A DNA stretch of 15,756 nt from a virus (IMGVR_UViG_2778261543_000003:1-15756), one strand, 5' to 3'. Numbered from the stretch's first letter, positions 2,055 to 15,330 are shown. The notes: generated from the letters alone by a model not told the origin. A program made the numbers and translations.

Positions 2055-2762
2055 TTATGCCGCCTGTTTTAGTTCGTTAACTCTGATGTTCATTACCTGA
2101 ACGCATTTAGCCTGCGCCTCCTCGTTGCCAGCCATTAATTGCCAGTCACGCTGATAACGCTCGATGAGTTTTTTCTTGTCAGTTTCTGTTGACGCATAAT
2201 CGCTGAAGTCTTTCAGGATTTGTTCGCAGTCAACCGATGGAGATTTCTGGTTGGTATTTTCTGGTGATGGTTTGTTATCTGATGCTGGGATTGCCCATCC
2301 CGGCAGCGATGGAGGGAGCCAGTAAAATCCTGTTCCATCCTTGAGTTTTGCCCTGTGCCATCCCTGCTTTTTATCGAGAGATGTTTGTGCGAAACCTTCC
2401 TCAAGGTTATACAGATACCGACCGATTCCCCATTGAACGGCAGCACGCTTCATTGCACCGGAACGACCACCTTTGACGGCTTCTACCTGCGTGTTTTCAG
2501 CAGCATCCCATTTGGTTACCCATTCGGAATCAATCTTGATTGATATGCCGCATTCAACTCCGCCGTTGTTGGGAATATCGCGGTATTCATTGCGCCATCC
2601 TGCTTTGCCGCAAACATCGTCCAGGCGTTTCATGATTGCCCGGTTCGTGGCATAAGCCAGCACCATAGCCCACACTTTGCCATCGCGTGTTTTACCGCTT
2701 TGCTGTATTCGCCATTCGATATCTTCAGGGCTGAATGGCTCATCGAATTTATTCAAATCCAT
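2055..2762 (-). CDS. Rad52-family single-strand annealing protein (Sak-like recombinase)
   Basis: Motif GGRSGAMKRAAVQWGIGRYLYNL resembles the conserved Rad52/Sak hairpin region; gene is adjacent to SSB and an exonuclease; stop TAA abuts the ssb ATG. Confidence 0.65.
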   Translation of the reverse strand: MDLNKFDEPFSPEDIEWRIQQSGKTRDGKVWAMVLAYATNRAIMKRLDDVCGKAGWRNEYRDIPNNGGVECGISIKIDSEWVTKWDAAENTQVEAVKGGRSGAMKRAAVQWGIGRYLYNLEEGFAQTSLDKKQGWHRAKLKDGTGFYWLPPSLPGWAIPASDNKPSPENTNQKSPSVDCEQILKDFSDYASTETDKKKLIERYQRDWQLMAGNEEAQAKCVQVMNIRVNELKQAA

Positions 2763-2770
2763 AATTCACC

Positions 2771-2941
2771 TCAGAATGGACACGGCCCAAGGAAATAACG
2801 CTGATTTAATACTTCGACTCGGGACAAATTAAGGCATACCCGCATTCCTTCGCGGTCGCCATTATGGCGATACCAGAGAGCTTTCTGCGTGTACATGCGT
2901 CTCTGTAACTTGCTCTCCTTCACTGTGGTTGCAAGTGACAT
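2771..2941 (-). CDS. Small hypothetical protein (56 aa, MSLATTVKESK...)
   Basis: Not in the ORF track (under 60 aa). AAGGAGATATTC-ATG RBS; its stop overlaps the RBS of the Rad52-like gene. Confidence 0.35.
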   Translation of the reverse strand: MSLATTVKESKLQRRMYTQKALWYRHNGDREGMRVCLNLSRVEVLNQRYFLGPCPF

Positions 2942-3020
2942 GAATATCTCCTTCGTTACCGATTAATTCTTTCATCTGACGAATGAATTCTTCGTCTGAC
3001 CAGTTATCTGTAAAACTCAT
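2862..3020 (-). CDS. Small hypothetical protein (52 aa, MSFTDNWSDEEFIRQMKELIGNEGD...)
   Basis: ATGA stop/start overlap with the upstream small ORF; overlaps the 2771-2941 ORF in another frame, so at most one of the two may be complete. Confidence 0.25.
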   Translation of the reverse strand: MSFTDNWSDEEFIRQMKELIGNEGDIHVTCNHSEGEQVTETHVHAESSLVSP

Positions 3021-3169
3021 TTCCTGCGATACCATGGAAGGTTGATAGCTGATTTCATCGCTTTATTTGCTTCAAGCCACATTTTTGAATCACCAATAAA
3101 TCTGGCTATTACTGCTTTGTTCTGTGCAGCACGAAGCATCTGGTGATTGATGGCTATTTCATTGCGCAT
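3017..3169 (-). CDS. Small hypothetical protein (50 aa, MRNEIAINHQMLRAAQNKAVIARFIGDSKMW...)
   Basis: GGAGG 6 nt upstream of the ATG at 3169; occupies the kil-equivalent position just upstream of the recombination genes (positional inference only). Confidence 0.4.
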   Translation of the reverse strand: MRNEIAINHQMLRAAQNKAVIARFIGDSKMWLEANKAMKSAINLPWYRRK

Positions 3170-3288
3170 AACGCCTCCAGTTGTTTCTTTGCTGCTCTGA
3201 TTAATTGTTTAACTCGGCGTGATAATTCAGATTCGTGCGGGTAGAAAGCGGACATGACGCCGCTACCCGCGAGCTGAAAGTGCATCAT
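3154..3288 (-). CDS. Small hypothetical protein (44 aa, MMHFQLAGSGVMSAFYPHESELSRR...)
   Basis: TAAGGAG 7 nt upstream of ATGATG at 3288; the track's longer form (start 3363) has no RBS and would abut the upstream stop. Confidence 0.45.
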   Translation of the reverse strand: MMHFQLAGSGVMSAFYPHESELSRRVKQLIRAAKKQLEALCAMK

Positions 3289-3363
3289 GGGTAACTCCTT
3301 ATATTTGATTGCATAACGAAAACGCCTCGAGTGAAGCGTTATTGGTATGCGGTAAAGCCGCAC

Positions 3364-3732
3364 TCAGGCGGCCTTGATCGTCATATCATCTGAATCAAAT
3401 ATTCCTGATGTATCGATATCGGTAATTTTTATTCCTTCACTACCATCCATTGGAGGCCATCCTTCCTGACCATTTCCATCATTCCAGTCGAACTCACACA
3501 CAACACCATATGCATTTAAGTCGCTTGAAATTGCTATAAGCAGAGCATGTTGCGCCAGCATGATTAATACAGCATTTAATACAGAGCCGTGTTTATTTAG
3601 TCGGTATTCAGAGTCTGACCAGAAATTATTAATCTGGTGAAGTTTTTCCTCTGTCATTACGTCATGGTCGATTTCAATTTCTATTGATGCTTTCCAGTCG
3701 TAATCAATGATGTATTTTTTGATGTTTGACAT
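3364..3732 (-). CDS. Strongly acidic hypothetical protein (122 aa)
   Basis: Clean ORF with GAGGAA upstream; by my count about 22 Asp/Glu against about 8 Lys/Arg; lies between the pL-proximal cassette and the recombination module. Confidence 0.7.
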   Translation of the reverse strand: MSNIKKYIIDYDWKASIEIEIDHDVMTEEKLHQINNFWSDSEYRLNKHGSVLNAVLIMLAQHALLIAISSDLNAYGVVCEFDWNDGNGQEGWPPMDGSEGIKITDIDTSGIFDSDDMTIKAA

Positions 3733-7183: not shown

Positions 7184-7462
7184 ATGCAACTTACAAGTAC
7201 TCGCAAGAAAGCGAATGCAATTACAAGCAACATCCTGAATCGAATTGCTGTACGTGGTCAGCGAAAGGTTGCCGACGCGTTAGGGATTAATGAATCGCAA
7301 ATTTCGCGATGGAAAGACAGCTTCATCCCAAAAATGGGAATGCTTCTGGCTGTTCTTGAATGGGGTGTTGAAGACGAGGAGTTGGCGGAACTGGCTAAGA
7401 AAGTAGCCAGAATGCTGACAAAAGAAAAAGCCCCGAAGAACGGCGAATTCTTCGAGGCCTGA
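7184..7462 (+). CDS. cII: Transcriptional activator cII
   Basis: Strong resemblance to lambda cII as I recall it (ILNRIA, SQISRWK, IPKMGMLLAVLEWGV). Confidence 0.85.
   Translation: MQLTSTRKKANAITSNILNRIAVRGQRKVADALGINESQISRWKDSFIPKMGMLLAVLEWGVEDEELAELAKKVARMLTKEKAPKNGEFFEA
7418..7454 (-). terminator. Minus-strand intrinsic terminator inside the cII 3' end (candidate OOP-like antisense RNA terminator)
   Basis: 7-bp stem CGAAGAA/TTCTTCG (7434-7440 with 7448-7454) followed on the minus strand by GGGCUUUUUCUUUU. Confidence 0.45.
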
Positions 7463-12575: not shown

Positions 12576-12650
12576 GGGTCAGTCGTATAAAGGTCATTAC
12601 GGAAGGCTGTTAACCTTCTTATCGTGGTTCGAGTCAACGCTGTCCCGCCA
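12576..12650 (+). tRNA. tRNA-Asn-like (anticodon GUU), possibly degenerate
   Basis: Cloverleaf foldable by hand: anticodon arm GAAGG-CTGTTAA-CCTTC, T-loop TTCGAGT, 3' CCA; but one acceptor mismatch, one T-stem mismatch and an odd D-arm. Confidence 0.4.
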
Positions 12651-12655
12651 AATAT

Positions 12656-12731
12656 GCTGGTTTAGCTCCAATGGTAGAGCAGTCGCCTTGTAAGCGAATG
12701 GGTAGCGGTTCAAGTCCGTTAACCAGCACCA
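12656..12731 (+). tRNA. tRNA-Thr (anticodon UGU)
   Basis: 76 nt; perfect 7-bp acceptor stem GCTGGTT/AACCAGC, D-stem GCTC/GAGC with GG in loop, anticodon loop CTTGTAA, T-loop TTCAAGT, 3' ACCA. Confidence 0.75.
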
Positions 12732-15111: not shown

Positions 15112-15330
15112 CGGCAGTACCGCGAAACAACCCAAGCCAGTAAGTGGGGAAATAACACTGGCAGCCACTGAAAGATGAACCTCCAGCCTTATGGCAAAAA
15201 AGATTCTTTGTGGTGGCGGACTGATGGAAAGACATCGGATAGAATAAAACAGTGGCTAGGGTAGCTCCCGAAAAGCGGAATCGTCACCGCCAGCCACTGA
15301 ATCTATGACGAACAACTAGACGAGGTTGAT

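What the first reader, a model, noticed from the sequence alone, without database searches (positions are those of the whole stretch)
2771..3288. Cluster of four overlapping small ORFs (44-56 aa) upstream of the recombination genes, including a kil-position candidate
Four short ORFs with good RBSs (TAAGGAG, GGAGG, AAGGAGA) and stop/start overlaps fill the 500 bp between the acidic protein and the annealase; none is in the 60-aa ORF track. In lambda this interval encodes small host-targeting proteins (Kil, cIII). The 3017-3169 ORF is the best-supported candidate host-interference peptide. Two of the ORFs (2771-2941 and 2862-3020) overlap by about 80 nt in different frames, so at least one may be spurious.
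Basis: partly seen in the sequence, partly recalled or inferred. Interest (0 to 1): 0.35.

Follow-up and report, generated by a model that had tools for sequence, protein, structure and literature searches.

The report
Known cIII, kil and two small ORFs
The four small overlapping genes are real but already catalogued: two are the well-known lambdoid-phage peptides CIII (blocks the FtsH protease) and Kil (blocks cell division), and the other two are conserved small phage proteins of unknown function that sit just upstream of the recombination gene.

Summary
On the minus strand, 3288..2771 carries four translationally linked small ORFs between a lambda Ea10 homologue and a Rad52-type annealase.

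- **3288..3154** is HK022-class cIII (Pfam PF08134, 104.7 bits). Its DNA is identical to HK97 cIII.
- **3169..3017** is a lambda-family Kil (PF06301, 72.6 bits).
- **3020..2862 (ORF-A)** corresponds to Sf6 gene 30 and the front of HK97 gp42.1. **2941..2771 (ORF-B)** corresponds to Sf6 gene 29 and HK97 gp42. Both are catalogued hypothetical proteins (phrog_2123 and phrog_1723).

Neither overlapping ORF looks spurious.

- ORF-B is under purifying selection along its whole length (pN/pS 0.12-0.25).
- ORF-B folds as a confident helical hairpin (pLDDT 92.6).
- In 103 of 104 related loci an annealase gene of the Rad52, Erf or AAA_24/Sak4-like type follows ORF-B directly, or after an inserted HNH gene. 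The remaining locus had too little flank to tell.
- Only the first 26 codons of ORF-A are selected (0.34). Its tail inside ORF-B is not selected, and it stays open by chance.

The ORF-A and ORF-B functions are unknown. A P22 Arf-like accessory recombination role is a weak lead only. Verdict: already known, low interest.

The parts
3154..3288 (-). cIII, HK022 class, 44 aa (MMHFQLAGSG...CAMK). Inhibitor of the FtsH protease that protects CII.
   Evidence: Pfam PF08134 cIII, 104.7 bits against a cutoff of 25. phrog_550. DNA identical to HK97 cIII across the ORF. RefSeq names the same 135-nt ORF 'protease FtsH-inhibitory lysogeny factor CIII'. The HK022/HK97/H-19B CIII class is described in PMC1838920.
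3017..3169 (-). kil, 50 aa. Lambda-family host cell-division (FtsZ) inhibitor peptide.
   Evidence: Pfam PF06301 Lambda_Kil, 72.6 bits against a cutoff of 27.6. phrog_2055, E 1.2e-35. 57% identity to lambda Kil over 30 aa. Only synonymous differences from HK97 kil. RefSeq calls it 'host cell division inhibitory peptide Kil'.
2862..3020 (-). ORF-A, 52 aa, acidic. Equivalent to Sf6 gene 30, the HK022 p38-like protein and the front part of HK97 gp42.1. Its conserved N-terminal 26 aa (MSFTDNWSDEEFIRQMKELIGNEGDI) are followed by an unselected tail read through the start of ORF-B.
   Evidence: phrog_2123, E 9e-42. In the 75 nt unique to ORF-A, pN/pS is 0.34 in its own frame against 2.8 and 1.75 in the other two frames. 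The N-terminus is conserved in Enterobacter, Pseudocitrobacter and Shimwellia loci, and the start codon always overlaps the upstream stop. For the tail, pN/pS is 2.24, and 79% of synonymous recodings of ORF-B leave this frame open equally far.
2771..2941 (-). ORF-B, 56 aa, basic helical hairpin (MSLATTVKESKLQRR...LNQRYFLGPCPF). Equivalent to Sf6 gene 29 and HK97 gp42. Always the gene immediately upstream of the annealase.
   Evidence: phrog_1723, E 9e-36. pN/pS is 0.25 in the overlap part and 0.12 in the unique part, in its own frame. Homologues down to 41-48% identity keep S10, A21, R25, L37, E43, F50, P55 and F56. AlphaFold2 pLDDT 92.6, helices 7-27 and 30-51. Downstream gene tally over 104 loci.
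3321..3340 (-). Terminator-like hairpin between ea10 and cIII (AACGCTTCACTCGAGGCGTT followed by TTCGTT).
   Evidence: Consensus scan. HK97 annotates a 'putative terminator' at the homologous position. Function not tested.
3364..3732 (-).
   Evidence: 99% identical (121/122) to lambda Ea10. PF10800, E 3.9e-47.
2055..2762 (-). Downstream flank: Rad52/Rad22-type single-strand annealing protein, 235 aa.
   Evidence: PF04098, E 3.3e-25. phrog_1097. Followed by SSB, an exonuclease and Abc2.

Best explanation
This is the cIII-kil segment of the leftward early (pL, N-antiterminated) operon of an HK97/HK022/Sf6-like lambdoid prophage, followed by two further small conserved genes that lead into the recombination module. 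All four are read on the minus strand as one tightly coupled translational unit.

cIII (3288..3154) is the HK022-class peptide. It competitively inhibits the host FtsH protease and so stabilises CII, which is encoded at 7184..7462, favouring lysogeny.

Kil (3169..3017) is a lambda-family peptide that blocks FtsZ-ring assembly and causes filamentation after induction.

ORF-A (3020..2862) starts on the kil stop codon (ATGA). It encodes a conserved acidic 26-residue N-terminal peptide. Translation then simply runs on, out of frame, through the ribosome-binding site and first 26 codons of ORF-B until the first stop.

ORF-B (2941..2771) has its own strong ribosome-binding site and encodes a basic two-helix hairpin with an invariant C-terminal YFLGxxPF motif. 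It ends 8 nt before the annealase gene.

Shown here: the identities of cIII and Kil by family membership; that ORF-A (N-terminal part) and ORF-B evolve as coding sequence; and the gene order. Inferred from the literature on lambda and HK022 homologues: the biochemical activities of CIII and Kil. Inferred from position only: that ORF-B, and perhaps ORF-A, are dispensable accessory factors of the phage recombination module, in the manner of P22 Arf and Abc1. I put that last step at about 0.3.
For: - Pfam hits above the gathering score for cIII and Kil, and PHROG hits for all four ORFs.
- Identical or synonymous-only DNA relative to the HK97 cIII and kil genes.
- Matching annotations in HK97, RefSeq E. 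coli and mEpX2.
- The lambda operon has the same order, ea10-cIII-kil-recombination genes, with a cIII/kil overlap.
- N, cI, cro and cII are present in the window.
- Frame-specific pN/pS: ORF-A N-terminal part 0.34; ORF-B 0.25 and 0.12.
- ORF-A N-terminus conserved, with its start overlapping three different upstream genes.
- ORF-B homologues down to 41% identity and a confident hairpin model.
- Gene downstream of ORF-B in 104 loci: Rad52-type 47, HK97-type Erf 43, other Erf 3, AAA_24/Sak4-like 8, HNH then Erf 2, one with too little flank.
- ORF-B stays next to the annealase even when other genes separate it from kil.
- ORF-A shares the SDEEFI motif and the kil-to-annealase position with P22 Arf. 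One nr cluster of ORF-A is named 'accessory recombination function protein'.
Against: - No experiment or expression data were available for this locus.
- ORF-A does not hit Pfam Phage_Arf. The profile-profile match to Arf covers only 18 columns at 15.9% probability.
- ORF-B has no informative structural neighbour in PDB or BFVD.
- ORF-B's adjacency to annealases could simply reflect the conserved gene order of lambdoid early-left operons.
- The pN/pS values are sums over non-independent pairs, dominated by close relatives and affected by mosaicism.
- Window cIII has no BLASTP similarity to lambda CIII, so its activity rests on the HK022-class literature.
Confidence: 0.85

Rival explanations
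1. Only one of the two overlapping ORFs is a gene. ORF-A (2862..3020) is a spurious open frame created by ORF-B's sequence and the space after kil.
For: - ORF-A's 26-codon tail has pN/pS 2.24 in its own frame, the same as that phase gives in the ORF-B-only region (2.08).
- 79% of synonymous recodings of ORF-B keep that frame open as far.
- Many ORF-B loci have no ORF-A at all, and some carry early stops in that frame.
- ORF-A has no Pfam family.
Against: - The 75 nt unique to ORF-A show pN/pS 0.34 in frame A against 2.8 and 1.75 in the other frames.
- MS[FI][TA]D[NT]W[ST][DE][DE].F[IV]R.M..LI is conserved at the protein level, with synonymous DNA changes, in Enterobacter phage, Pseudocitrobacter and a KilR-context locus.
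- In those loci its ATG or GTG overlaps the stop of three unrelated upstream genes.
- The same N-terminus is reused with a different tail in Kapi1-type phages.
- In-frame 21-nt duplications are tolerated.
Confidence: 0.12
2. ORF-A and ORF-B are really one gene, as HK97 gp42.1 is annotated (83 aa). The split would come from a frameshift error or mutation in this window, or the two would be joined by programmed +1 frameshifting.
For: - The HK97 record has two extra bases that fuse the frames.
- Several 81-82 aa fused proteins exist in public assemblies.
Against: - 45 of 50 unique ORF-A-containing sequences have the same split, 52-aa arrangement.
- The fused proteins are singletons or tiny clusters with junctions at seven different places, as expected of independent indels or read errors. 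The separate 56-aa ORF-B clusters have up to 201 members.
- ORF-B keeps its own AAGGAGA-ATG and exists without ORF-A in many loci.
- The ORF-B N-terminal residues that a fusion would replace are conserved.
- I made no dedicated search for a slippery site, so none has been identified.
Confidence: 0.03
3. ORF-A and/or ORF-B are host-takeover or anti-defence peptides, like their neighbours Kil and CIII. They would have nothing to do with recombination, and their position next to the annealase would be only conserved operon order.
For: - They lie in the part of the pL operon that in lambda holds small host-directed proteins.
- ORF-B works next to at least three unrelated annealase folds, which argues against a specific protein partner.
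- No recombination-related fold or domain was found.
Against: - ORF-B stays glued to the annealase start (spacer 1-13 nt) while its upstream neighbours vary: lambda-type Kil, KilR, the P22_Y8K6 family, and a 41-aa ORF with a DUF3268 hit.
- The P22 gene in the same slot, arf, is a genetically defined recombination accessory.
- None of this is decisive.
Confidence: 0.3

Closest known systems
Bacteriophage lambda Kil (47 aa; Pfam PF06301), identical in protein to HK97 gp43 Kil
   Same: Family HMM match well above threshold. 57% identity over the 30-residue core. Same place in the pL operon, with its start overlapping the 3' end of cIII. No amino-acid difference from HK97 Kil.
   Different: 50 aa rather than 47 aa, with divergent ends. 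In lambda it is followed by gam, here by ORF-A. Activity on FtsZ/ZipA is inferred from lambda work (cited in PMC9836094), not tested for this variant.
HK022-class CIII (HK022, HK97, H-19B; Pfam PF08134)
   Same: DNA identical to HK97 cIII. The class was described as a second group of CIII FtsH inhibitors by Kobiler et al. 2007, PMC1838920. A CII gene is present in the window.
   Different: Not detectably similar to lambda CIII by BLASTP. It belongs to a different Pfam family from Lambda_CIII PF02061. 44 aa against 54 aa.
HK97 gp42.1/gp42, Sf6 gene 30/gene 29, mEpX2_036/035 (phrog_2123 and phrog_1723)
   Same: Direct orthologues of ORF-A and ORF-B with the same overlap architecture. Sf6 proteins are 100% identical.
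   Different: The HK97 record has two extra bases that fuse the frames. All are annotated only as hypothetical. The PHROG label 'recombinase' has no visible experimental basis.
P22 Arf (accessory recombination function, 47 aa; Pfam PF17585, phrog_2445)
   Same: Same slot between kil and the annealase gene, with its start overlapping kil. Small and acidic. Shares the SDEEFI motif with ORF-A. The Kapi1-type ORF-A relative touches phrog_2445 at E 0.062.
   Different: ORF-A does not match the Arf HMM. hhalign gives 15.9% probability over 18 columns. Arf's conserved C-terminal half is absent. The partner here is a Rad52-type annealase, not Erf, and P22 has no ORF-B equivalent.

Membership tests
Lambda_Kil (PF06301) | Sequence match to the family model above the curated cutoff | tested here: met
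   72.6 bits against 27.6, E 1.7e-20, covering profile positions 1-31 of 31. 57% identity to lambda Kil.
Lambda_Kil (PF06301) | Location in the N-dependent early-left operon, directly after and overlapping cIII, upstream of the recombination genes | tested here: met
   Gene order N ... ea10-cIII-kil ... annealase in the window, the same as in lambda.
Lambda_Kil (PF06301) | Blocks FtsZ-ring assembly and causes filamentation when expressed | not testable with these tools
   Needs expression in E. coli. Known for lambda Kil only (Haeusser et al. 2014, cited in PMC9836094).
cIII protein family, HK022 class (PF08134) | Sequence match to the family model above the curated cutoff | tested here: met
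   104.7 bits against 25, E 2e-30, covering profile positions 1-37 of 37. DNA identical to HK97 cIII.
cIII protein family, HK022 class (PF08134) | Partner CII activator encoded by the same phage | tested here: met
   Window 7184..7462(+) matches phrog_191, a CII-like activator, at E 2e-37.
cIII protein family, HK022 class (PF08134) | Inhibits FtsH and stabilises CII | not testable with these tools
   Biochemistry is known for lambda CIII. The HK022 class is described in PMC1838920.
Phage_Arf (PF17585), considered for ORF-A | Sequence match to the family model | tested here: not met
   No hit even at E <= 10, although P22 Arf scores 121 bits. hhalign of the ORF-A alignment against the Arf alignment gives 15.9% probability over 18 columns.
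Phage_Arf (PF17585), considered for ORF-A | Small gene between kil and the annealase gene | tested here: met
   P22 has kil-arf-erf with overlapping ends. The window has kil-ORF-A-ORF-B-annealase.
Phage_Arf (PF17585), considered for ORF-A | Stimulates Erf-dependent recombination | not testable with these tools
   This is a genetic assay (Poteete et al. 1991, cited in PMC12315714).
phrog_2123 (ORF-A) and phrog_1723 (ORF-B) | Full-length match to the PHROG profile | tested here: met
   E 9.2e-42 over profile positions 1-52 of 52, and E 9.4e-36 over positions 3-58 of 58.

The most novel reading that the evidence does not exclude
ORF-B, possibly together with the acidic ORF-A peptide, would be a previously unrecognised generic accessory factor of lambdoid recombination modules. 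It would be a 56-residue basic helical hairpin that acts on something common to Rad52-, Erf- and Sak4-type annealases, such as host SSB, DNA ends or RecBCD/RecA. That would explain why it is kept immediately upstream of the annealase gene whatever the annealase family. ORF-A would be a divergent relative of P22 Arf.
Probability: 0.2. Interest if true: 0.45.

Novelty: already known. Interest (0 to 1): 0.15.

Why it matters
For genome annotation it matters little. cIII and kil are textbook lambdoid genes, and the two extra ORFs are catalogued hypotheticals.

There are two modest points of value.
- Annotation pipelines handle this locus inconsistently. RefSeq often calls cIII 'hypothetical' and, at least in the one RefSeq locus inspected in detail, annotates ORF-A while leaving out the better-supported ORF-B. 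One GenBank record labels ORF-B 'cIII'. PHROGs label both ORF-A and ORF-B 'recombinase'.
- ORF-B is a tiny, well-folded, Enterobacterales-phage-restricted protein that always abuts the annealase gene. The 2025 survey of lambdoid recombination modules, in the parts I read, does not mention it. It is a cheap candidate to test for an effect on recombineering efficiency.

Tried and rejected
- **Structural neighbours of ORF-B.** Foldseek against PDB and BFVD gave nothing better than E 0.4, only generic helical hairpins. No functional inference is possible.
- **ORF-A as a P22 Arf family member.** There was no Pfam Arf hit, and hhalign gave 15.9% probability. I kept this only as a resemblance.
- **Modelling a natural ORF-A/ORF-B fusion (P0001).** The aim was to see whether the ORF-A helix packs on the ORF-B hairpin. 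The ORF-A part came out at pLDDT 59-69, and no contact information was available, so the result is inconclusive.
- **Selection for an open ORF-A tail.** Rejected: 79% of synonymous recodings of ORF-B leave it open.
- **Single fused gene or programmed frameshift.** Rejected on the population of sequences. I did not scan for slippery sites.
- **Deeper homologues of ORF-B.** An exhaustive phmmer search of 1.8 billion representatives found only 16 proteins at E <= 0.001. A few of these are unrelated long proteins with low-complexity partial matches.
- **Rfam.** No RNA family lies in the interval.
- **NCBIfam.** No model matches any of the four ORFs.
- **Literature.** Searches for HK97 gp42 found nothing relevant.

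Full report
**What is in the sequence**

The finding lies on the minus strand. Reading 3288 down to 2771 gives four short ORFs:
- 3288..3154, 44 aa, MMHFQLAGSG...
- 3169..3017, 50 aa, MRNEIAINHQ...
- 3020..2862, 52 aa, MSFTDNWSDEEF... I call this ORF-A. It would be 57 aa if started at ATG 3035.
- 2941..2771, 56 aa, MSLATTVKES...YFLGPCPF. I call this ORF-B.

The junctions are a 16-nt cIII/kil overlap, an ATGA stop/start, and an 80-nt overlap with ORF-B in the +1 frame. An 8-nt spacer then separates ORF-B from the next gene.

One detail is inaccurate. The first ORF does appear in the 60-aa list, as a 69-aa GTG-started form at 3154..3363.

**Flanks and context**

- The 'acidic protein' upstream (3732..3364) is 121/122 identical to lambda Ea10.
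- The gene downstream (2762..2055) is a Rad52/Rad22-type annealase. It is followed by SSB, an exonuclease and Abc2.
- N, cI, cro and cII lie further right.
[quoted passage not shown] It has the same order as lambda: ea10, cIII, kil, recombination genes.

**Identity of the first two ORFs**

- 3288..3154 matches Pfam PF08134 (cIII family) at 104.7 bits against a cutoff of 25.
- 3169..3017 matches PF06301 (Lambda_Kil) at 72.6 bits against a cutoff of 27.6.
- Across cIII the DNA is identical to HK97. Across kil it differs only by synonymous changes.
- HK97, mEpX2 and RefSeq E. coli genomes annotate the same ORFs as CIII and Kil.
- The region recurs in 335 phage records and in 2098 of 5426 complete E. 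coli genomes.
- Kil is 57% identical to lambda Kil over 30 residues.
- This cIII is not BLASTP-similar to lambda CIII. It belongs to the separate HK022/HK97/H-19B class described by Kobiler et al. 2007, PMC1838920.

**The two overlapping ORFs**

ORF-A is phrog_2123 and ORF-B is phrog_1723. They correspond to Sf6 genes 30 and 29, to mEpX2_036 and mEpX2_035, and to the HK97 gp42.1/gp42 region.

*The HK97 fusion.* HK97 is annotated with a single fused 83-aa gp42.1 because its record has two extra bases. A handful of 81-82 aa fused proteins also exist in public assemblies. Their junctions fall at seven different positions, and they are singletons or tiny clusters. The separate 56-aa form has clusters of up to 201 members. 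In addition, 45 of 50 unique ORF-A-bearing sequences have the same 52-aa split arrangement. I read the fusions as independent indels or read errors, not as the normal state.

*Frame-specific selection.* I extracted the 250-nt segment (79 nt unique to ORF-A plus the 171-nt ORF-B) from 102 related loci, giving 68 unique sequences. I then summed Nei-Gojobori synonymous and non-synonymous differences in each frame.

| Region | Frame | pN/pS |
|---|---|---|
| ORF-A-only, 75 nt | A | 0.34 |
| ORF-A-only, 75 nt | other two | 2.8 and 1.75 |
| Overlap | B | 0.25 |
| Overlap | A | 2.24 |
| ORF-B-only | B | 0.12 |
| ORF-B-only | A phase (no ORF-A here) | 2.08 |

ORF-B is therefore coding throughout. The first 26 codons of ORF-A are coding. 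ORF-A's tail is not selected as protein.

A recoding test agrees. 79% of synonymous recodings of ORF-B leave the A frame open at least as far, so the open tail needs no explanation.

These are pairwise sums over related, mosaic sequences. They show direction, not calibrated rates.

*Comparative anatomy of ORF-A.* Its N-terminus follows the pattern MS[FI][TA]D[NT]W[ST][DE][DE].F[IV]R.M..LI.
- It is conserved, with synonymous DNA changes, in an Enterobacter phage, a Pseudocitrobacter genome and a metagenomic locus.
- There it follows a lambda-type Kil, a cIII-like gene and a KilR-type gene respectively.
- In each case its ATG or GTG overlaps the upstream stop.
- The same 16-21 residues occur after kil in Kapi1, HK140 and SEN22-type phages, with a different acidic tail.

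*Comparative anatomy of ORF-B.*
- Homologues exist down to 41-48% identity (Erwinia phage Eho59, metagenomic proteins). S10, A21, R25, L37, E43, F50, P55 and F56 are invariant.
- The family is small. An exhaustive search of 1.8 billion representatives found only 16 proteins at E <= 0.001. Only 69 of 50,697 phage records have it.
- AlphaFold2 gives a confident two-helix hairpin: pLDDT 92.6, helices 7-27 and 30-51.
- Foldseek finds no informative neighbour in PDB or BFVD.

**Position of ORF-B relative to annealases**

I tallied the gene that starts 1-13 nt after ORF-B in 104 loci:

| Downstream gene | Loci |
|---|---|
| Rad52-type annealase | 47 |
| HK97-type Erf | 43 |
| A second Erf type | 3 |
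| AAA_24 (Sak4-like) ATPase | 8 |
| HNH endonuclease followed by Erf | 2 |
| Too little flank to tell | 1 |

The upstream neighbour varies: ORF-A after lambda-type Kil, KilR, a P22_Y8K6-family protein, a 278-aa protein, and a 41-aa ORF with a DUF3268 hit.

ORF-B thus stays attached to the annealase side of a very active mosaic junction. That fits an accessory role in the recombination module. It could equally be conserved operon order, or simply the leader that supplies the annealase ribosome-binding site (TGAGGTGA).

P22 carries arf in the equivalent slot. Arf is a genetically defined but mechanistically unknown recombination accessory.
- Arf shares SDEEFI, acidity and the kil overlap with ORF-A.
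- One nr cluster of ORF-A is even named 'accessory recombination function protein'.
- However, ORF-A does not hit the Pfam Arf model, and the profile-profile probability is only 15.9% over 18 columns.

I keep this as a resemblance, not membership.

From the sequences, ORF-A is strongly acidic (11 D/E against 2 K/R) and ORF-B is basic (10 K/R against 4 D/E). Modelling a natural fusion did not show a confident interaction.

**Verdict**

However, the locus is already known: cIII and kil by name, the other two as catalogued hypothetical proteins. Neither overlapping ORF appears spurious, although only the N-terminal half of ORF-A behaves as coding sequence.

The functions of ORF-A and ORF-B remain unknown. 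My best guess is that they are dispensable accessory factors of the recombination module (about 0.3). The main alternative is that they are further host-directed peptides (about 0.3).

Interest is low.

Noticed in passing
L001 (HK97, AF069529.1) 1502-1753, aligned to window 2771-3020: The HK97 GenBank/RefSeq sequence has two extra bases (CATGTCACACGCGAG against CATGTACACGCAG). These fuse ORF-A and ORF-B into the annotated gp42.1 and remove the N-terminal 20 residues of ORF-B. This is either an old sequencing error or a natural knock-out in the laboratory phage.
   Followed up: partly
window 2771-3288; L002 (NZ_AP045814.1); KY979108.1 (phage ECP1); L005 (Erwinia phage Eho59): Annotation of this locus is inconsistent. 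Many RefSeq E. coli genomes list one 'hypothetical protein' where cIII should be. PHROGs call both phrog_1723 and phrog_2123 'recombinase' with no evident basis.
   Followed up: partly
proteins P0036 and P0054 (ORF-A homologues; window equivalent about 2970-2990): Some Salmonella and E. coli copies of ORF-A carry in-frame tandem duplications of a 21-nt unit, giving EFIRQMK repeated two or three times.
   Followed up: no
window 3300-3364: There is a mosaic junction here. ea10 to the right is 99% identical in protein to lambda Ea10, whereas cIII to the left is of the HK022 class with no BLASTP similarity to lambda CIII. A terminator-like hairpin (3340..3321, minus strand) sits in the junction, where HK97 annotates a putative terminator.
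   Followed up: partly
L006 (phage Kapi1) 1501-1608; proteins P0078-P0109: A very common 35-aa ORF (one cluster is seen on at least 1000 contigs) has the first 16-21 residues of ORF-A followed by a different acidic tail (…NQHKEQEKDDDSDSE). It precedes a 103-aa gene and a RecT annealase. A recombination junction therefore lies inside ORF-A.
   Followed up: partly
L104 and L105, 2679-3149: An HNH endonuclease gene (PF13392) is inserted exactly between ORF-B and an Erf gene in two loci. It looks like a homing-endonuclease insertion at the module boundary.
   Followed up: no
window 12576-12647 and 12656-12728 (+); 15249-15311 (+): Rfam finds two tRNA genes, and a match to the int-alpA sRNA family (42 bits against a gathering score of 35.8), in the late-region side of the window.
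   Followed up: no
L090 (JAFADF010000066.1): A 3.9-kb contig binned as 'MAG: Actinomycetes bacterium' carries ORF-B and the Rad52-type annealase at 100% protein identity to the E. coli prophage. This is almost certainly a mis-binned or contaminant enterobacterial phage contig.
   Followed up: no
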